Below, piece by piece: positions 1,316 to 59,979 of a DNA stretch of 64,000 nt. Within the stretch, counting starts at the first letter, position 1. Each line of letters starts with the position of its first letter. The position numbers were made by a program, and so were the translations under genes. The stretch covers positions 458,074 to 522,073 of the forward strand of contig MU053934.1 of assembly GCA_013239625.1 (NCBI GenBank), written 5' to 3'. This DNA comes from Lama guanicoe. Its lineage: Eukaryota. A model generated the notes under the pieces. That model ran no database searches. It saw nothing but the letters and a program-made list of their open reading frames with translations, and had not been told where the DNA came from.

Positions 1316-3999
1316 ACGAAATGTGTGTGTGTGTACACATGTGAGTATCATATAACCAACCAAGACCAGCAACAAAAGCTAGTAACATATTAGTCTTTAA
1401 AACAAAAAAAGGAAGTAGAGGCAAAAACAGGGGGACGAAGAGCCACTACCCTGGGCCTCCAACACTCCTGAATAGAGTCAAGTTAAAATTCTGTTCCTCG
1501 GGCACAGAGTCTAGTGCCTTTAGGAATTTGCCTTGCATGGCAGTTGTACTCACAGAAGGTCTGTCATAAATATTTGCTGATGGTGACAATGACAGCTACA
1601 CATTTACAGCCACCTAAGCTGCCTATCCCCACGGCTAATTTGTTTTGTGTTTGTCCTCAAAAATCTTCCCTTTATGAACCTCTCCATCTTGCGAGCAAAA
1701 TCCCTTCACTCGAGGGCTGAGATTTGCTAAGAAGCTTGGAGCTTCATTTCATATCAATTTTCTTACAATTAATCAGTTTTATTTAAAAAGGAGGCGGGGG
1801 ATAGATATATCTACAGACCAGGGAGAATGGATGCAGCTTAGAGAACAATTATATGTAATGGTCCCAGAAGGGTTAGCTGTTCAGCTGATCATTAAAGAAA
1901 TGGATGGAGTTGGCTTTAAAAAAGGCTCCAGCTCCCTCTGCCTCCCCCGAGTCAGAGGGAAAAAACAAAAAACGGAGAGGACTCTCTCTGCTTCCTTCTG
2001 CAACCACATTAAAATGTGTCCCCAAACAGCCTTTCACTAAGAACCTCCCACCTTGGCTGTGCCTCTAGCATACAAATGCAGGGCACCACCTCTGGCTTTT
2101 GGAAGCGCAATTGCAGTTTGGAGATTACTCATTACCGTAAGTATCGTTGGTTTATTTTCCAACACACCAGCCGGCATACCCATGGCTGGACACAGCAAAT
2201 CAGGTTAACATTCTATTTAATCTGACAGTTCCTTACTTGTCTAGCTGGTGGTTTTGTTCTAGGCTTTTTTCCCCCTAGGTATAAAAATCTATTTATCTGT
2301 TTACTCTTCCTCTTTGACCATCAGCATTAAAAATCAACGCCCACCAGTCAATAATGATGAACTGGACCATCTTGTAAACTGGTCCAGGCAACTGGAGACT
2401 GGCTCCTACCTTCCTACTAACTTGGCTGTGACATGTGGAAGTTCCTACATCCTACTGCTATTGTGACGGACAGGCCAGAAATGGTCTCCCGACACTAACA
2501 TGGGATCACAAGCTCCAAAGACAATGAAAAAGTTGATCTGTGTCTGGAAAAATTCAAGTGTCATCTCTGGAGTCAGACCAAATATTCAGATCTTGGCTTC
2601 TTGGCCTGTGCACCCTTGGAGATGCCCCTTCCCTCACTAAGCCTGTGGCCTCATCTGTAAACTGGTGAAAGAATTATACCTACTTCATAGGATCAAATGG
2701 GCAATGTCAAAATGGAGAGAAAAGACACCACACAATACACTGGAGAGACAGCCAAGCAACAGCTGATCTGATCCTGTAAACGCTCAGTTAGGAACTGTAA
2801 CACAAACGGACCTGAGTAATAAACCAACGGCAGACGAGGAAAACAAAAGAAACTGGAAAAACAGTCTGCCATGTCCAGGTAAAATGAACCATGATGTCAT
2901 CTCAACCTGTCCTCACTCAGGACCGTCGCTGGAGCCTCCCAGACCAGCCAACCACACGCAGGTCTCTGACCCACTTGAACCTCACTCTGGCCTCCTGGGT
3001 CCCCTGAATTCCAATGGAAGCCACCCCAGACTATGGAAGGATGCAGAATGGTACCTCACGTGGACCATCATCAGCCTCTGAAGAGGCAGAGGTGGCATGA
3101 GTGGGACGATCCTATCAGGAGTGGCAGGGGAGGCGGGAGGGAGGAGGGAATTAGTCTCTCAGTACCTTATCTTATTCCGTCACCATGCCTGCCTGAGTCT
3201 GAGCTTGTTAGCCCTTTTCTCAGATGAACAAAGTGAGGCTGAGCAGGTTAATCTGCTCATCCGGCATCACCTTGTCTGCTGTCCAGTTTAGAAATGTTAA
3301 CTCAGCTCAGAAGTCCTCCAAGGGCCCCCTGTCTCACTCCAGGCCATCCTCCAGAATTCAAGTCACAGGTGGTCCCCTCTCTGACATCCTTAGGAGCTCG
3401 CTACAAGTCAAGGAGAGAAAGGAGGGGGACAACGACGTGGAGAGGAACGAGCCCAGATGGGAGGCAGGGGGACCTGAGAGTCACGCTCAGCTGGTGGGAA
3501 GCCCCACCTTCCACTCTCCTGTCTTCTGCATGAGAAGCTTGGGCTAGAAAGAATCAGAGGTAGGCTGTTCCCTCTGACATCCTCATTTTACACAAACAGA
3601 AACAGGTCTGTAGAGAAGTAAGCAATGGACCAGCAAGTTCCTGGCCAGGTCAGGACTAGGACCCTGGGTACCCACCTATCACCCAGGATTTTTCCCGTAT
3701 CTTCACATCCACATGCAACATTTCACCATCCACTGAGCCCTCCCCACTACTCCTTGGAGGCACAACAGATTCCTTGCCATCCTGCTTCTCTGAGTTAATG
3801 CTCCCTTCCAAGAGCAGGTTAGTAGGTGGATATTGGGATTAAGACCTGGGTGATTCCCTAGACTTCGAGTAATCTCTCCAGGCCAGCTGTGCTCACACTG
3901 CAGATGCCCCAGCTTCTGAAATGCAAAGCAAACATTCTGCCACCGACTAGAAGAGCAGCTCCCAGCGTACGCAGGCATGGCAGTCACCTTGAGGACTGG

Positions 4000-4097
4000 C
4001 TGGAATGTAAGAACCTGCAGGCCCCATACCCTCGAGGCACCTGCTGCAGCAGGTCCTGAGAGGAGTCCAGGAATTTGCATTTCAAACGAGTTCCAGG
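4000..4097. mobile_element. MER5-like hAT-Charlie fragment
   Basis: CAGGTCCTGAG...CCAGGAATTTGCATTTCAAACGAGTTCCAGG resembles a MER5 arm. Confidence 0.5.
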
Positions 4098-4580: not shown

Positions 4581-4771
4581 CAGGTTGCCAGATTTAGGAA
4601 ATAAAAATACAGTTATACCCAGTTGGGGTTGAATTTCAGATGAACTAAAATATATTTTCAGTATAAGTATGTTCCATGCAACATTTGGGATATACTTAAT
4701 ACTAAAAATTGTTACATGTGTATCTGAAATTCAAATGTAACAAAGAGCCTTGTATTTTATCTGGTGACGTT
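4581..4771. mobile_element. MER53 palindromic hAT DNA transposon
   Basis: GGTTGCCAGAT...TTGAATTTCAGAT...AGTATAAGTATGTTCCA/TGGGATATACTTAATACT...ATCTGAAATTCAA...ATCTGGTGAC, an internally self-complementary element matching the recalled MER53 consensus. Confidence 0.85.
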
Positions 4772-7499: not shown

Positions 7500-7780
7500 C
7501 ACCCAACAAACATTTGCTGAACATCTTCTATGTCTTTGACCTTGTACTTAGCGCTGGGTTAGAGAGATGAATCAAAACACAGCTGGTACCCACCCACAGA
7601 GTGCAGCAAACAGAAGGGAGATGTCCAAGCACACACAATGATGAGACAGTCTGGTGAGTGCTATTTATAACCAGTGTTAGCAAGGGGGCAAGTGAAAACA
7701 CAGAGCTTCTGCCAGGCAGGGGACAGGTGGGCGCTGGTAGAGAAAATCATTCTGGAAGAAGCAACATCTGAACTGAATCT
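7500..7780 (-). mobile_element. L2 LINE 3' fragment (continues at about 8530-8595)
   Basis: CAACAAACATTTGCTGAACATCTTCTATGT... is a typical reversed L2 3' end and is interrupted by an L1 piece. Confidence 0.6.
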
Positions 7781-8518
7781 CGGGTCTTTTGTGATTTCAT
7801 ATAAATTGTAGGATTATTTGTTCTAGTTCTGTGAAATATTTCCTGGGTAATTTGATAGGGATCACATTAAATATGTAGATTGCTTTGGGTAGTATGGCCA
7901 TTTTAACAATATTAATTCTTCCAATCCAAGAGCATGGGATATGTTTCCATTTCTTTAAATCATCTTTAATTCCTTTAATCAATATTTTATAGTTCTCTGC
8001 ATATAAGTCTTTCACCTCATTGGTCAGGTTTATCCCTAAGTATTTTATTATTTTTGATGTGATTTTAAAAGGGATTTTTTTTTTTTACTTTCCTTTTCTG
8101 ATATTTCATTGTTGGTGTAAAGAAATGCAACAGATTTCTGTATGTTACTCTTGTATCTTGCTACATTGCTGAATTTGTGTATCAACTCTCATAGTTTTTG
8201 TGTGGAGTCTTTAGAGTTTTCTATATATAGTATCATGTCATCCACATATCCCCTTATATTTCTTTTTCTTGTCTGATTGCTATGGCTAGGACTTTCAGTA
8301 TTATGTTGCATAGAAGTGGTGAGAGTGAGCATCCTTGTCTTGTTCCAGATTTTAGCAGAAAGGTTTTCAACTTTTCACTATTAAGTATTATGTTCACTGT
8401 AGGTTTGTCCTAAATAGCTTGTATTATGTTGAGATATGTTCCCTCTATACCCACTGTTTTAAGAGTTTTTATCAGAAATGGGTGTTGAATTTTATCAAAT
8501 GATTTTTCTGCAACTATC
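7781..8518 (-). mobile_element. L1 ORF2 internal fragment (RT region)
   Basis: ORF 7797-8015 [46 protein letters not shown] is classical mammalian L1 ORF2p. Confidence 0.93.
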
Positions 8519-8596
8519 GAACTTAATTCCAACCACCAAGGATCAGCTAGGCGAAGAGAGGAGAGGAGGGCATTCCAGGAGGCTTGGCACTGCCAG

Positions 8597-10226: not shown

Positions 10227-10346
10227 AGGGGGATGTATAGCTCAAGTGGTAGAGTGCCTGCATAGCATGCCTGAGGTCCTGGGCTCAATGCCCAGTGCCT
10301 CCTCTAAGAATAAATAAGTAAACCGAATTACCACCCAGCCAAAAAA
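10227..10346 (+). mobile_element. tRNA-derived SINE (Vic-1-like, camelid)
   Basis: A box TAGCTCAAGTGG, B-box-like GGCTCAATGCC, AATAAA-rich tail. Degenerate TSD AAGCACACAATAAG/AAGCACGCAACAGG. Confidence 0.88.
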
Positions 10347-12950: not shown

Positions 12951-13153
12951 CTTTCTTTAAATGACTAACACTGGAAACAAAGGCAGAGAAGCTCAGAAAA
13001 GGAGAGAAATGGGGAATTCCTGTGGCCTGGCAAGGGCAGAGAAAGCTTCCCAGGGGAGGTGGGATTTGAGCTGAGCCTTGAAGGCCTGGTAGGAGCAGGG
13101 CCAGCACCGAAAACATCAGAGGGGTGAGGAGCAGGACCAAAGGACTGGGGACA

Positions 13154-13240
13154 TCATATTCTTTTTCATTATAGGTATTACAAGGTATTGAATATAGTTC
13201 CCTGTGCTGTAGCCTATAATGAAAAAGAATATGAAAAGGA

Positions 13241-13271
<31 letters not shown>

Positions 13272-13346
13272 ACTGAGTCACTGTGCTGTTCAGCAGAAAC
13301 TAACACAGGATTGTAAATTGACTATACTTCAATTAAAAAAAAAAAA
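13154..13346 (+). mobile_element. 5'-truncated, 5'-inverted L1 3' end
   Basis: 13154-13210 is reverse-oriented L1 3'UTR and 13211-13346 is forward 3'UTR with poly(A). TSD approximately AAAGGACTGGGGACA/AAAGACTGGGACA. Confidence 0.88.
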
Positions 13347-14545
13347 AAAGACTGGGACAAAGGCCAGGCAGATGGGCCTGGACCACACAAGGCCTGACAG
13401 GAGACACCAACTGTCCCAACAAATTGAAGTAAAATCCAAGTCTGACTCAGAAATGCCCTCCACTGACTATACCACACGGTTCACATGATCTGACCCTTTC
13501 TGACCTTATCAGCCCAGCTCCATGGGTTATTTTCTGAATTTGTCCATCAACTCTTTTACACACTTGTAGGTGGCTCCTCCAGCCTTGAGACTCCAGCCTG
13601 CAAATTAAAACATCCCCAGGGGATTTATCTCAGGCACACTGTCGATGGGAAGTTGTCCCGGACCGTCAAGGACAGACCCACTCCCGGGTCCTCCCACCCC
13701 AGGAGGCCACGCCTCGGCTTACCACGTGGACTGTTCCAGACTTGCTTGTTCTGCCGGGCCTCCCCACCAGCTACACAAGGCAGGACTCGCAGCTCTACCA
13801 GTGGGTGCTCGAGTGTGGGGGACCAAGCTTAAACACCAAGTCCGCAAAAGAAGAAGAAAGGAAAGGGGAACACACAGGTTTGCTTGCGATCGGAAAGCAG
13901 TGTTATTCAGAAACCGTTTGTAAGCTGCAATGCCCTAAAGAGAAGAAGCAGTTCCCTAAGGACACGTCCTGCTCAGGGATGCACAAAAGGCACGGAGCTG
14001 AGGAACACCTTCTCACAGACAGTGCAAAGCTGATGCTGGGGGGCCGAGTGTCATTCCTGGAGAAGGAGCTGGCGGGGCACCCCCCTTGCTGCTGGGGGTG
14101 CCTAGTGCCTCTGTAAGGGTTCACAGCAAAACAAACATGGAATGCACTATTTTCGCTTTTTGCCTTTTTTTGTAGAAGTGCATATCCTCTTGGGATTTTG
14201 TTCAGTTAGTGAACACAGATTCTGTTGTAGGTCTTCGGGAAAAGAGCACTGGCATAAAGTGAACATTCAAAATGCGGGGAGAGGGGTCCCTGTACAGACT
14301 TTGGCAAATGAGTCTTTGGCCTGTCACTGGCCTCAGTTTTCTCAACTCTGTGAACAAAATAATACCCAGGTTTCTCTGCTTGTCTGGTACGTGGGTAAGA
14401 GATACAGAAGCTCAGGGGTATTCATTGTTTTCAAAAAGAAGTAATTTTGGGAATCAGCCTTTTATTTCAGAAATGGAACCCATTTTATGCGGTGTCATCA
14501 TAAAACGATGTATACGAATGATTAACTGATCAAGGCAGTAAACAG

Positions 14546-15276
14546 AGAGTCCTTAAAACACTAAAAGTAGAGTTAGTGTATGATCCAGCAATCCCACTCC
14601 TGGGCATGTACCCAGAGAAAACTCTAATTTGGAAAGATACATGCACCCCAGTGTTCATAGCAGCACTATTTATAATAGTCAAGACATGGAAGCAACCTAA
14701 ATGTCCATGGACAGATGACTGGATAAAGAAGTTGTGGACATATATGTATCTATCTATATCTATATATATATACATACACATATGGTACATATATGTACAT
14801 ATATACACATACACACATACATATACATACAATGGACTATTACTCAGCCACAAAAAGAATAAAATAATGCCATTTAGAGCAACATGGGTGGACCTGGAGA
14901 TTGTCATTCTAAGTGAAGTAAGCCAGAAAGAAAACTATCATATGATATCATGTATACGTGGAATCTGAAAAAAATGATACAAATGAACATACAAAACAGA
15001 AAGAGACTCACACACATAGAAAATAAACTTCTGGTTATCAAAGAGGAAAGGGGTAGGGGGAGGGATAAGTTAGGAGTGTTGGATTAGCAGGTACAAACTA
15101 CTATATATAAAATAAACAACAAGGTCCTACTGTATAGCACAGGGAACTACATTCAATATCTTATAATAACCTCTAATGAAAAATTATATATGTGTGTGTG
15201 TAACTGAATCATTATGCTGTTCACAAGAAACTAAATACAACATGGCAAATCAACTGAACTTCAACTAAAAAAATAA
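14546..15276 (+). mobile_element. L1 3' portion (ORF2 C-terminus + 3'UTR)
   Basis: ORF 14576 YDPAIPLLGMYPEK...TPVFIAALFIIVKTWKQPKCP is the L1 ORF2p C-terminus. Embedded (TA/CA) microsatellite and A-rich tail. Confidence 0.93.
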
Positions 15277-16025: not shown

Positions 16026-16666
16026 TTTCTTTTTTTTTGAATTAAAATTTTTATTTTTATTACTATAGAACTTTTTTTTAATTGAAGTATATTCAGTTTA
16101 TAATGTTGTGTTGATTTCTGGTGTATAGCACAGTGATTCAATTACACATATACATATTCCTCTGCATACTTCTTTTCATTACAGGCCATTGCGAGGTACT
16201 GGATTTAGTTCCCTGTGCTCTACAGTAGGACCTTGCTGTTTAACTATTTTATATATAGTAGTCAGTATCGGCAAATCCTGAATTCCCAGTTTATCCCACC
16301 ACATCTCCCCCCGCTTTCCCTCCTGGTAACCATAAGTTTGTTTTCTATGTCTGTGAATCTGTTCCTGTTTTGGAAAGAAGTTCATTTGTCTCATTTTTTT
16401 TTTAGATTCTACATATAAATGATGTCATATGATTATTTGTCTTTGTCTGACTTCACTTAGTATGACAACTCCCAGGTCCTTCTATTTTACTGCAAATGGC
16501 AATATTTCATTCTTTTTCACGGCCGAGTAGTATTCCATTGTGCATATATACCACAACTTCTTTATCCAGTCATCTGCCAATGGACATTTAGGTTGCTTCC
16601 ATGTCTTGGCTATTGTAAACAGTGATGCTGTGAACATTGGGGTACGTGTGTCTTTTCGAATTAGAG
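16026..16666 (-). mobile_element. L1 3' portion
   Basis: Poly(T) start followed by the reverse complement of the same L1 region (TTAGGTTGCTTCCATGTCTTGGCTATTG). Confidence 0.93.
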
Positions 16667-25507: not shown

Positions 25508-25665
25508 TCACACAGGGAACTATATTCAGTACCTCCTAACGGTCTAGAGTGGAAAAGAATATGAAAAGGAATATATATATATGTGTATAAATGAATCACT
25601 ATGCTGTACACCAGAAATTAACACATTATAAGTCAACTATCCTTCAATAAGACAAAATAAAAATT
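25508..25665 (+). mobile_element. Short L1 3' end inserted in Tigger1
   Basis: CACAGGGAACTATATTCAG...TCACTATGCTGTACACCAGAAATTAACAC...A tail. TSD AAAAAACCATGTG/AAAAAACAATGTG. Confidence 0.85.
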
Positions 25666-25965
25666 AAAAAACAATGTGCATACCATAATTAAAAAATACT
25701 TTATTGTTAAAAAGTGCTAACCATCATCTGAGCCTTCAGCGAGTCGTAATCTTTTTGTTGGAATTTTGCCTCAATGTGATGGTCACGGACTAACTCACCA
25801 GGGTGGTGGTTGCTGAAGGCTGGGCTTAATTAAAATTAAGAAATTTTAATTTCTTGAAATAAGACAACAAAGAAGTTTGCTGCATCAACTGACTCTTCCT
25901 TTCATGAACGATTTCTCTATAGCAGGGGATGCTGTCTGGTAGCATTTTACCCATGACAGGGCCTC

Positions 25966-26463: not shown

Positions 26464-26880
26464 TATTCTAAGTGAAGTTATCCAGAAAGAGAAAGAAAAA
26501 TACCATATGATGTCATTTATTTGTGGAATCTAAAAAAAAAAAAACCTGAGCCAAATGAACTTAAGTACAAAACAGAAACAGATCCACAGACATAGAAAAC
26601 AGACCTGTGGTTACCAGGGGAGAAGGGGAGGGGAGGGATAAATTGAGAGTTCAGGATTTGCAGATACTAACTACTACATATAAAACAGATAAACAACAAA
26701 GTCCTGCTGTCGAGCACAGGGAACAAGGTATTCAATACCTGTAACAGCCTATAATGAAAAATAATATGCAAAGGAACATATATACGTATAACTGAATCAC
26801 TATGCTGTACACCACAAACTAACACAACATTGTACATCAACTATACTTCAACTTGAAAAGAAAAAAGACAAATTAAAAAA
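26464..26880 (+). mobile_element. L1 3'UTR
   Basis: CTAAGTGAAGT...AAAATACCATATGA...CAAAACAGAAACAGA...TCACTATGCTGTACAC...A-rich tail. Confidence 0.9.
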
Positions 26881-35492: not shown

Positions 35493-35645
35493 TGAGGAGG
35501 GTAGAGCTCAGCGGAAGGGCACATGCTTAACATGCACGAGGCCCTGGGTTCCCCAGTACCTCCATTAAAACAAATAAATAATTAAACAAACAAGCTTAAT
35601 TACCCCTCCCCCCAAAAAAACTTAAAAAAAAAAAGAATTTAAAAA
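35493..35645 (+). mobile_element. Vic-1-like SINE
   Basis: tRNA-like head GAGGGTAGAGCTCAGCGG and long A tail. Perfect 15-bp TSD AAAAAACTGGCTGAG (35478-35492, 35646-35660) at a TT/AAAA site. Confidence 0.92.
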
Positions 35646-55812: not shown

Positions 55813-57186
55813 GTCTAAGGCACCACCTCTCCAGGGGGGACCCATCCCTCATTGAAGACCTCAGAGCATCCTTCCATGGGACACACAACCATGGAAGAAT
55901 TACAGATTCACCACAGTCGTCTCCTCCTTCGAAGGCATCTCCCTTGGCCAGGCGAAGCGGAGTGCGCTCAGCTGCCTCCCAGGTACTTTTCCTCATCTCC
56001 ACCCCTTCCATTACACCATGCACCCTGGATTCTGCTTTTTAAGGGCAAGGACTCACGTTTAATGGGGACATCAGTAGGCGGGCAGTGTAAATATCACTTC
56101 TAGCACAGAGCGCTCTCTGGGGTGACACAGGTGGAGGAGCAAAAAGGGGAAAAAGAATCGCAAAGCAATCAAAAATTTCCACTTACAACATTAACCTCTT
56201 TGAACAATGCATTGCCAAACCGATCTTTAATGCAAATCAGTCTTTCCAGAGGATACACACTTTTCCTGGGGTCAGACTGCCGCTCCGGGAAGGCTGATTT
56301 TTGTGTTTTTCTTCTGAATGTTAAATCAGCACTTAATCACATCCACGAGGCTACCCGTGATGCCACCCATCGGACTGTGTTGGTCCGACTGGTGGGGGAT
56401 TACGTGTCTAACTTGCAGAGTCTGTTTTTCCCTCGCGTACAGAGGCCTATGGAGATTTTATGCAAATATCTCTTGTGGCAAATGAAAATGAAGGCAGTGA
56501 TTTCTTTACCTTTTCTCTACTCTTCCCCACTCATCGATTCCACGCAGGCCGCGTTCACTGGGCGTACACGCTCTATTCCAGGCCTGGGGCGTGGGGAGAG
56601 GGATACAGAGGTGGAGATGACAGGGCCCCCACCCTTGAGAAGCCCTATGAGAATGCAGAGGAAAGACACAGAGCCCATGAATGTGAACGCAAGACAGGAC
56701 CAGGGGAGGCAGGGTTCCCAGGAGAAAAAAAATCGGATCTCAGCCAAAGAGGATGCTGTGATGTCAAAAGGCTGGCGAGGAAAGAGCCGTCATCCCTGGC
56801 AGAGGGGACCACCAGGAAAAGGGAAAGGGCACGTCTGAAACGGGGATGGCAGCCAACCACTCCTTCCAGAGGACGGTGCCCAGAGCCATCACATGACAAG
56901 GCTGATGGGTGGAGGGAACGGGACTTGGATGGCCTTGGATACTAAGTGAAGAACGCAAACTTCATCCTACAGCTCCCGGGGAGCTACTGAAGATTCCTGA
57001 GCAGGAATGACAGCATCTGTACTTAAGGAAACCAACAACTCCACAAACAGTGTGAGGACCAGGTTGGTGGAGGAGAAGGTGCTGCCCAGAGGTCAAGTGG
57101 ATGCCTGGGAGCCACGGCAATACACAAGTTCTTAATTTGGGGACATTTCCGTTAATGAATTGCTGATCTGGTCCATATATGGGTCC

Positions 57187-57508: not shown

Positions 57509-58191
57509 TTACCTTCACCATCACACAAAACTCAAGAAAAGAAACCACCACGAGGCAGAGTCAGGAAGAGGTATTTTAGTTCAACAGGGTCAGAGATACC
57601 CCATTCTCAGAGGCCACGGGTCAAAGAGCGCAGAACTGTCTCCAGGCAACCGGAGGATGGACAGGCTGGCCTGAACTCTACTAGAGGTCTCAACACCCTA
57701 AATGGTGTGAGACAAAGAGCCTGAAACCAAGCTGCAGAACATCTCATTCCGGCAATGTACTCCGGGACCCACCTGAACACTCACTCTGTCTGGGCCTCGG
57801 GAGCCAGCGAAAATAATGACAGGCTCCGTGACTGATCTCTGACACCCAGAACACGGCATCCGCCTATCAGTCCCGAAATCCATCGGGGATTTAATTCCCT
57901 CTTCTGCGGGGCTGCAGGACCATTCATGGCGTCTAACAATCTCTCCCTTGTCTAGCTCCAGGTAAGAACTTTCAGCTAACGTTCCTGCCACCTTCAAATG
58001 AAGTCAGATTCAATCGCAGGCATCCAGGCATCTATAAAAAAAAAAATCCAATTGCTCCAATATATCTCACTCACACAACGCGTTCGACAGATGCAGCACG
58101 TAAAGTAAACAGCCTAGTTAAGAAGTGCTAGTTCATTAGTTGTGGGGCTGTCAGGAGAGCCCAATAGCTGTGATAACACACAAAGCTGTCC

Positions 58192-58401
58192 CCGTCTTAG
58201 AAGGCAAGCTACATGCTTTCCATTTTTATCACCCAATTCATAACCTTGCTGTCTGGCTTTAAGAATCAATAGCCTGGTGGTTTTGGTATCCGATACATTT
58301 GTCTTAGTTTGGACGTATTTCATTTCCCTCGCCACTTGAAGGGAGCGGGGTAAGGCGAATTGTTCCTCTCGTGGCATTTGTTTTTCCAAATCTATAATTT
58401 C
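58192..58401 (-). mobile_element. Ancient non-mammalian-type L1-clade ORF2 fossil (putative)
   Basis: Translation EIIDLEKQ...QTK.....T.......LKARQQGYELGDKNGKHVACLLRR matches the recalled LKxRQxxYExGDKxGKxxAxxLR motif of fish/amphibian/reptile L1 ORF2p. Confidence 0.6.
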
Positions 58402-59979
58402 ACACTGACGTGTTCCACAAACCAGTGAAGGCAAAGAGGGAAAGAGAGCAGATATCAGAGGCCCCATCCCAGGATCAACGAAGCCTCCAACTGGGGTCAT
58501 GTGGGATGACTCATTTAACAAGTTTGCACGGGCAAAAGACAACTGGTCTACCCAGGGTGACCCATCATTGCCTTAGCAAAGAATTTTTATCTAGTACTTA
58601 CTACGCGCAAACCCTCTGCTAAATAATTTATGTGAATTGTCTCATCTGTTCTAAGAAGTACCTGAAAAAAATGCTACTATTTTATACACACACACACACA
58701 ATTAGATATATATATTTAGTTATTTTTATATTTATTAGAGCACTGACATTGAAAAAAAAGAAGACAATTCCAGCTTTATGGATAAGAGAAAGAAACTTAA
58801 AGAATAAGCATATTTAAGGCAAATCAACATATACATGCACGGACTCAAAATAACTGGGTGTAAGCCTAAAAGAGAAGTTGGGGAAGGAGCAGGGAGCAGT
58901 TCTTGAATCCAATACAAATTATCTGAATAAGGAAAGTGGGGCTCAGACAAGGGAATGACACATCCACAGTCATCCAGAGAGCAAAGGACAGAATTACGTC
59001 TAGATTCTGAATTCTCGTCCTCCTGATCTGCTGTTTCAGTTTTATCATCATCATCACCATCGTCATCATCAAGTCCACACGTAATTTTTTAAAATGTTTA
59101 AAGGACCAAAATATAGAAAGACTTGTGATTTGGAGGCATCCAAGATGGAAGAGAGAGAAAAATCCTTCAAGAACCTCCCAGTCCAAATCCACAGAAACAG
59201 AAAGTGTTTTCCCGTGTCCTCAAGATCATATAAGGAGTCCAATGCCTGTCTTCTCAGTCGCCTATCAGAGCACTCGGCAAAATCTATTTTAGTTAGTTGG
59301 GTCTGGATTTCCCTCATCAGAGAGTGAGTCCTTTTGAACAGGGACTATGCTTTTTTCAGGAAAAGAACAATTTTGGAAGAGACATTTGAGATTTACCAGA
59401 AGGCAGACTGGAGCCGGGGGATGGGAAAAGAGAAAGAAGGCTGAGAAATGAGAGTTTCCATGAAAGGCAGAAGAGCTGACTGCTACTCTGTACTCCAGGC
59501 AGAAGAGTTGTAACTGTCTGTTAATTTAATCAGACAAATATCCACCGCAGCCTACTGTGTGTGACAGATCTAGCTGGCAGGAGGGAACACGATCTTAAAA
59601 CAAGACGAGCAACGTTAGTGCCACTGCATGATTCTGACAATCTTGTGTACAGGAGGCTCGAAAGTGCCAGGTGGCATGAGTAAAACCAATCAGCGCTGAG
59701 CCACTAAGACCACCTTTCACTTTCTTCCTCCCTTCTTCTCCTTTTGTGCATGACGAGTCAGGACAACCTCCAACCCATCCTTTGGGGACCACCTCTTTAG
59801 TGACGCTGACCCAGACTCCTTTGAAAGACCCCCCCAAAAAAAACCCTCTTTAATTAGAATGCTTTTTCTCTTTTGTTTAACAATTGCAACCACTGTTTTT
59901 ATTGCTAATGAATAAAGCAATAATGTTACTAATAATGTTACTAATAGAAAATGGTTAGTACCATTTTCTATCAAATCCT

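What the first reader, a model, noticed from the sequence alone, without database searches (positions are those of the whole stretch)
58192..58401. Stop-free fossil of a pre-mammalian L1-clade retrotransposon in the LARGE1 5' intron (possible exaptation)
Seen: 70 uninterrupted minus-strand codons read EIIDLEKQ...REMKYVQTKTNVSDTKTTRLLILKARQQGYELGDKNGKHVACLLRR. Known: the EN-RT linker of fish/amphibian/reptile L1 ORF2p carries a motif of the form LKxRQxFYExGDKxGKLLAxxLR, preceded by a helical 'EIxxLE' segment, whereas mammalian L1 has WFFEKINKID at the equivalent position. From memory the match over the last ~45 residues needs no gaps. Inference: this is a relic of an L1 lineage distinct from the mammalian L1s in the window. 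Being recognisable and frame-intact at such an age suggests purifying selection, as for the conserved ancient X-LINE-type repeats. It could act as an enhancer or exon.
Basis: partly seen in the sequence, partly recalled or inferred. Interest (0 to 1): 0.72.

Follow-up and report, generated by a model that had tools for sequence, protein, structure and literature searches.

The report
Ancient non-mammalian L1 fossil in LARGE1
This is likely a dead scrap of an old jumping gene of a non-mammalian L1 type, lying in an intron of what is likely the LARGE1 gene and shared with other, likely mammalian, species; its reading frame appears broken in some of them, so it likely makes no protein, and a regulatory role is untested.

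Summary
The 70 open codons are there, but openness alone is common: 6.7% of random 70-codon stretches in this window. The L1 origin is likely right. A non-mammalian-type L1 (L012) aligns without gaps over 47 codons (14/47 identical, window-wide E 0.052); mammalian and Tx1-type linkers score at background. Weaker similarity continues downstream, through stops and frameshifts, to the window's only PDG[FL] motif, giving a decayed fossil of about 460 nt. Large database searches found no intact ORF2p. Eight orthologue-like ORF clusters (61-95% identical pairwise) show it is old, but two break inside the 70 codons, one just after, and replacements are radical (mean BLOSUM -1.2), so the frame is not selected. 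DNA-level constraint is unsettled: slightly slower than its flank (p 0.04-0.32) and CpG-rich (2nd of 121 tiles). A pre-mammalian age is not shown. Such fossils are a known class (137 pre-amniote L1 fossils in human, PMC9004415). Verdict: new member of a known kind, low to modest interest.

The parts
58195..58335 (-). Core of the fossil: 47 codons homologous to the end of the L1 ORF2p EN-RT linker ('Cryptic' region), about residues 335-381 of human ORF2p, with a G-D-K word where mammalian L1 has I-N-K
   Evidence: tblastn with L012 ORF: only hit, 30% identity, ungapped, E 0.052; top score in 256 kb of real and reversed sequence, 57 against 45; register to human ORF2p through P0017
58336..58401 (-).
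58114..58194 (-). Continuation of the linker; likely holds a short out-of-frame stretch (I-x-x-I word one base out of frame) and ends in a TAG stop at 58116-58114
   Evidence: in-frame score of codons 16-41 after the motif E: P 0.007 against 1500 random places; with one shifted stretch P 0.018; stop
57876..58113 (-). Decayed pre-RT pieces spread over three frames with stops, ending in the window's only PDG[FL] word (57887-57876)
   Evidence: 355 nt after the motif E against 312-333 nt in 3 Tx1-type comparators; none of these pieces is significant alone (scores 26-31)
58402..58757 (-). Upstream flank, not L1-like, shared with P0002, P0004 and P0007; supports orthology rather than paralogy
   Evidence: tblastn of the orthologue-like ORFs against the window
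44390..44577 (-). Context: internal exon with the ATG (44495) of the likely host gene LARGE1, same strand, 13.3 kb downstream of the fossil's end
   Evidence: gene name from recall

Best explanation
The stretch is likely a dead, non-coding fragment of ORF2 from a non-mammalian-type L1 retrotransposon that likely inserted once, in the sense direction of the host gene, before several mammal lineages split, and has likely been decaying since; the 70 open codons are likely just its best-preserved part. Shown: the open frame, the in-register similarity to L012, the downstream stops and frame changes in the window, the orthologue-like ORFs and their replacements. Inferred: insertion by target-primed reverse transcription (general L1 biology; no tail or target-site duplication is left), orthology, age, and absence of protein function. 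Any constraint on the DNA is at most weak on present evidence.
For: Homology: L012 linker hits only this place (E 0.052), is top of 256 kb; 9 of 9 peptides (window plus 8 orthologues) score p<=0.0015 against L012, 0 of 9 below 0.05 against mammalian L029, 1 of 27 below 0.05 against Tx1-type linkers; three orthologues score above the window copy (60, 61, 60 against 57), as expected if the ancestor was nearer to L1; orthologue profile finds the L012 linker first among 270 frames, E 5e-4. Independent of the selected motif: downstream codons P 0.007 and the single PDG[FL] at a near-expected distance. Not mammalian type: 14/47 identity and BLOSUM 57 with L012 against 9/47 and 8 with L029 and 9/47 and about 23 with human ORF2p (hand count); L012 falls outside the 100/99 mammalian L1 clade. 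No protein selection: P0005 changes frame after codon 59, P0004 ends after codon 65 in 4 of 4 members, P0009 changes frame right after codon 70 in 3 of 3 members; 51 distinct replacements have mean BLOSUM -1.16, 69% negative, below all 600 protein-constrained simulations.
Against: No intact ORF2p was hit in 1.84 billion representatives (E<=0.001), three word-seeded searches (E<=10), Pfam or solved structures. Only one non-mammalian L1 linker was on hand, and the mammalian comparators L029 and L033 are themselves decayed. E 0.052 is weak: another place (plus 56583-56726) scored 59 with another query in the same scan and also gave shuffle p 0.001, so shuffle p-values after selection overstate. 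6 of 8 clusters are open over the part of the 70 codons they cover up to codon 70 (biased: only called ORFs can be found). The fossil is somewhat more conserved than its upstream flank and is CpG-rich, which passive decay does not predict. The replacements are also more radical than my neutral model (below all 600 runs), so that null is imperfect. No orthologous DNA was seen; stops and shifts in orthologues are inferred from protein ends.
Confidence: 0.6

Rival explanations
1. Same L1 origin, but the DNA was co-opted as a constrained non-exonic regulatory element (intronic enhancer of LARGE1 or a neighbour); slow evolution kept it recognisable and the frame is a by-product.
For: Identity to orthologues is higher in the fossil than in the upstream flank: P0002 80/95 against 28/41 (p 0.04), P0007 64/94 against 23/39 (p 0.32), invariant columns 60/94 against 19/39 (p 0.12). 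CpG o/e 0.64 against 0.31 for the window, 2nd of 121 tiles, close to L012's 0.61. Ancient L1 fossils of this kind are usually conserved (PMC9004415).
Against: Two of three flank tests are not significant, they are not independent, and the orthologues were found with the core as query. Pairwise identities of 61-95% map to roughly 3-27% DNA change by my simulation, which is compatible with neutral distances because the species are unknown. Several columns alternate R/Q/W/H/C or T/M, which suggests free CpG decay (inferred, no DNA seen). No chromatin or expression data.
Confidence: 0.27
2. Chance resemblance: ordinary intronic DNA that happens to read like an L1 linker.
For: Window-wide E only 0.052; among 35 query pieces about 2 such hits are expected; no database ORF2p hit; a probable chance place scored as high.
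Against: The hit is in the predicted register with the predicted comparator; two downstream signals not used for selection agree (P 0.007; roughly 0.004 for the PDG[FL] position, hand estimate); orthologues score as well or better than the window copy.
Confidence: 0.07
3. A non-mammalian-type L1 that entered or persisted in an early placental ancestor (horizontal transfer or late survival of a second lineage), so the copy is younger than the marsupial split.
For: High CpG retention and clear recognisability fit a younger age; no non-placental orthologue was seen; L1 transfer has been proposed (PMC6036668, passages).
Against: No second copy in the window and all database hits look orthologous; vertical inheritance of such fossils is documented (PMC9004415); the same paper as cited for transfer found no strong evidence for ongoing L1 transfer in mammals.
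Confidence: 0.04
4. A selected coding exon or upstream ORF of the host gene.
For: Sense orientation; frame open over about 140 codons in the window, P0002 and P0007.
Against: Frame breaks in 3 of 8 clusters in or right after the 70 codons; radical replacements; start codons differ among orthologues; my simple scan of 58620-57850 found 1 acceptor-like site, downstream of the frame, and no consensus donor inside it.
Confidence: 0.02

Closest known systems
[quoted passage not shown]
   Same: Short (100-500 bp) decayed ORF2 fragment that matches non-mammalian L1 proteins, single copy at its locus, in a large intron, non-coding
   Different: Those were dated by alignment to reptile, frog or fish genomes and are described as strongly conserved; neither age nor strong conservation is shown here. 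Whether this locus is in that author's online track could not be checked; LARGE1 is not in tables 3-4 or the supplement text.
Non-mammalian vertebrate L1 lineages (many concurrent families in fish, amphibians, reptiles; PMC5381506), represented here by L012/P0017
   Same: E-x-G-D-K word, basic-hydrophobic helix before it, K-x-L-A-x-x-L-R after it, in register without gaps
   Different: Only 30% identical, so a different family; no EN, RT core, ORF1 or tail left
Mammalian L1 (L1M/L1P; human ORF2p Cryptic region 240-380, PMC13103738; young L1 piece at window minus 7797-8530)
   Same: Homologous position in ORF2p; 9/47 residues shared
   Different: I-N-K word and W-F-F replaced by G-D-K and Q-G-Y; scores at background
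X9_LINE (L1) and MARE6 (Tx1), ancient human repeats in Repbase (PMC5753468)
   Same: Ancient L1-clade relics in mammals

Membership tests
L1 clade ORF2 (fossil) | Protein-level homology to an L1-clade ORF2p | tested here: met
   (modest strength, one good comparator); large database searches blank
L1 clade ORF2 (fossil) | Colinear order linker then pre-RT KxPGPDGF-type word | tested here: met
   355 nt against 312-333 nt; 22-43 nt longer than comparators
L1 clade ORF2 (fossil) | APE endonuclease and RT core placing it in the L1 clade by phylogeny | tested here: inconclusive
   no EN or RT core survives at the locus, so it cannot be put on the RT tree
L1 clade ORF2 (fossil) | Poly(A) tail and target-site duplication | tested here: inconclusive
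   no shared 8-mer between the two flanks examined; expected to be eroded in an old, truncated piece
Mammalian L1M/L1P | WFFE-K/R-INKID word and best match to mammalian ORF2p | tested here: not met
Tx1 clade | Best match to Tx1-type linkers (aromatic-rich R-x-F-F word after GEK/GES) | tested here: not met
   1 of 27 comparisons below p 0.05; 6-8 of 47 identities; Tx1 label of L007, L019, L023 is my reading
Pre-amniote / pre-mammalian exapted TE fossil | Present at the orthologous site in marsupial or non-mammal genomes | not testable with these tools
   no vertebrate genome alignments held; species of P0002-P0016 not shown
Pre-amniote / pre-mammalian exapted TE fossil | Strong DNA-level constraint (about 0.3 of neutral rate, PMC3428314) | tested here: inconclusive
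   flank comparison p 0.04, 0.12, 0.17, 0.32; CpG excess
Domesticated coding exon | Conserved frame and conservative replacements | tested here: not met
X9_LINE / MARE6 | DNA match to the family consensus | not testable with these tools
   no Dfam or Repbase library

The most novel reading that the evidence does not exclude
A second, non-mammalian-type L1 lineage was still inserting (by late survival or horizontal transfer) in the early placental ancestor, and this CpG-retaining copy was then co-opted as a regulatory element in the 5' intron of LARGE1.
Probability: 0.06. Interest if true: 0.65.

Novelty: new member of a known kind. Interest (0 to 1): 0.27.

Why it matters
As it stands it adds one more locus to a known set of ancient L1 fossils, which bear on whether mammalian ancestors carried several L1 lineages by descent (PMC9004415) or acquired L1 by transfer (PMC6036668). 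If it proved constrained and active it would be a candidate regulatory element of a dystroglycanopathy gene (role of LARGE1 recalled). If it proved absent from marsupials yet of non-mammalian type it would challenge the single-lineage picture of mammalian L1.

Tried and rejected
No ORF2p hit: Pfam, solved structures, phmmer on 1.84 billion representatives (4 hits, 3 orthologue-like, 1 repeat protein P0006 dropped), word-seeded searches (1 of 32, 2 of 7007, 7 of 198 candidates, all orthologue-like). ESM Atlas: nearest named cluster a chordate RVT_1 set at 0.79, a lead only; nothing for P0007. Metagenome scan gave one 20-residue match, L001, dropped as chance and as selected by the motif. Viral scans for the fossil, a linker pattern and the young L1 were blank; plasmids blank for P0017. 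No whole genome is held for the window. No read- or contig-level comparison with other species was obtained, so DNA divergence, dN/dS and transcription stay open. No self-repeat, tandem repeat or Rfam family lies at the locus. Further non-mammalian L1 linkers were sought in 5 handle genomes and none beyond L012 was found. Rejected: 'stop-free means selected'; mammalian L1M origin; Tx1 origin; insertion private to this lineage. Paper searches showed no paper on this element; none of the 35 rows listed holds the word LARGE1. Earlier findings: nothing that bears on it. No structure prediction was run.

Full report
Observation. The minus strand of 58192-58401 gives the 70 residues quoted, without a stop, within a 152-codon stop-to-stop frame. 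That is not rare: the window has 289 such frames of 70 codons or more, and 6.7% of random 70-codon stretches are stop-free. An exon whose peptide I recall as the LARGE1 N-terminus lies on the same strand at 44577-44390, with an AG acceptor before it and a GT donor after it; the fossil is therefore in an intron upstream of the ATG exon. The gene name is recalled (one search found no solved structure for this peptide) and the species was not tested.

Direct database tests were blank for ORF2p. Pfam, solved structures including human ORF2p, phmmer on 1.84 billion representatives and three word-seeded searches returned no intact LINE protein. As a positive control, the young L1 piece at minus 7800-8084 hit human ORF2p at E 6e-38.

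Real comparators came from host-derived contigs in prokaryote assemblies, found with an RT pattern (24 loci; 3 viral loci). L012 encodes an L1 ORF2 piece (P0017) that aligns to human ORF2p 172-427 at E 5e-25, its E-I-G-D-K word lying on human E-R-I-N-K; on an RT tree it falls outside the 100/99 mammalian clade. Its host is not shown by the tools. L029 and L033 give decayed mammalian linkers; L007, L019 and L023 give linkers that I read as Tx1-type.

Homology test. Of 35 query pieces, the L012 linker frame had one hit in the window at E<=0.5: 58335-58195, 47 residues, ungapped, 30%, E 0.052, and none in the reversed window. In a frameshift-aware scan of 256 kb of real and reversed sequence the fossil was that query's top place (57 against 45), while the mammalian (21) and Tx1-type (29-31) linkers scored at background there. 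In register: 14/47 identities with L012, 9 and 5 with L029 and L033, 6-8 with the three Tx1 types, and 9/47 with human ORF2p (hand count). Nine of nine peptides gave shuffle p<=0.0015 against L012, none of nine against L029, one of 27 against Tx1 types. These p-values follow selection and overstate: a probably unrelated place at plus 56583-56726 scored 59 with another query and gave p 0.001 as well. Two signals outside the selected motif carry more weight. Codons 16-41 after the motif E score at P 0.007 against 1500 random places, and the only PDG[FL] word in six frames of the window lies 355 nt downstream, against 312-333 nt in three comparators (rough chance 0.004 by hand). I put the L1 origin at about 0.9. 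The fossil then spans about 58335-57876, with stops and frame changes in its 3' part; an I-x-x-I word sits one base out of frame at the expected codon, so even the long open frame is probably not all in the L1 frame. The first 22 codons are not shown to be L1-derived.

Orthologues. The protein searches gave 8 clusters of ORFs called on unnamed contigs (P0002-P0005, P0007-P0010), 61-95% identical pairwise over up to 61 codons, apart from the 29-residue P0005 piece at 78-100%. Three also match the upstream non-L1 flank, which supports orthology; no second copy lies in the window. By my simulation 80% and 70% identity mean about 10-12% and 20% DNA change, so the insertion predates the split of several lineages. 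Which lineages is unknown, so 'pre-mammalian' is an inference from the L1 type, not a result.

The frame is not selected. Two clusters (P0002, P0007) span all 70 codons; four begin at the Met of codon 9; P0005 changes frame after codon 59; P0004 ends after codon 65 in 4 of 4 members; P0009 changes frame directly after codon 70 in 3 of 3 members. These breaks are inferred from protein ends, and the sample is biased towards open frames. The 51 distinct replacements average BLOSUM -1.16 with 69% negative, against +0.5 in a protein-constrained model (0 of 600 as low) and -0.26 in a neutral model (also 0 of 600, so the null is imperfect); 7 of 7 testable orthologues reject the constrained model, though they share the window's own changes. 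A simple splice scan found no consensus donor in the frame.

DNA-level constraint is open. The fossil is more conserved than the 39-41 flank codons upstream, but only one of four tests reaches p<0.05 (0.04, 0.12, 0.17, 0.32). CpG o/e is 0.64 against 0.31, second of 121 tiles, which would fit slow evolution or low germ-line methylation; on the other side several columns vary in the way CpG decay would produce (inferred). No orthologous DNA, chromatin or expression data could be examined.

Comparison with what is known. Frith 2022 (PMC9004415; parts 1-5 of 8 read, supplement text searched) reports 137 L1 and 12 L1-Tx1 fossils older than the mammal-reptile split in human, mostly missed by RepeatMasker and described as conserved; LARGE1 is not in its printed tables, and its online track was not seen. 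Kojima 2018 (PMC5753468, passages) lists X9_LINE under L1 and MARE6 under Tx1. Boissinot and Sookdeo 2016 (PMC5381506, abstract and passages) describe one active L1 lineage in mammals and many in other vertebrates. PMC13103738 (passages) defines the Cryptic region as residues 240-380. Lowe and Haussler 2012 (PMC3428314, passages) give 0.30 of the neutral rate for exapted elements. Ivancevic 2018 (PMC6036668, passages) proposes transfer of L1 into therians. The element works like one of these fossils; membership of the dated, exapted set is untested.

Verdict. Observation confirmed, interpretation partly supported: likely a real fossil of a non-mammalian-type L1, not a selected reading frame, with exaptation unproven (about 0.27). 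New member of a known kind; interest 0.27.

Noticed in passing
window 56583-56726 (+): A stretch that scores 47-59 against the pre-RT region of L002-L004 (12 of 31 identical by eye, ungapped; window-wide E 0.058); either chance or a second old LINE scrap on the other strand, 1.1 kb from the fossil.
   Followed up: partly
window 57800-58400: Local CpG excess, o/e 0.64-0.68 against 0.31; tile 57861 ranks second of 121, after tile 25249.
   Followed up: partly
L002, L003, L004 (around locus positions 2600-4050): Three 186-211 kb contigs of the viral collection carry an L1-type RT frame of 489-501 codons that lacks the linker motif stretch; they form their own clade, 98/97.
   Followed up: partly
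L005-L028 and genomes G001, G006, G007: Many prokaryote assemblies hold eukaryotic LINE contigs (mammalian L1, Tx1-type, RTE-like and others), i.e. likely host or environmental contamination.
   Followed up: no
window 7750-8530 (-): Young mammalian L1 ORF2 piece (RT to thumb), broken by stops and frameshifts; 77% identical to L018 over 66 columns.
   Followed up: partly
window 10231-10303, 35497-35564, 46820-46891, 51544-51616; 4655-4707: Four tRNA-like heads that belong to one ~100-nt repeat family (likely SINEs) and one mir-1302 match.
   Followed up: no
window 14550-15276, 16072-16666, 25511-25671, 26465-26880, 51446-52391, 13151-13348: Several copies of L1 3'-end sequence, 72-88% alike.
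   Followed up: no
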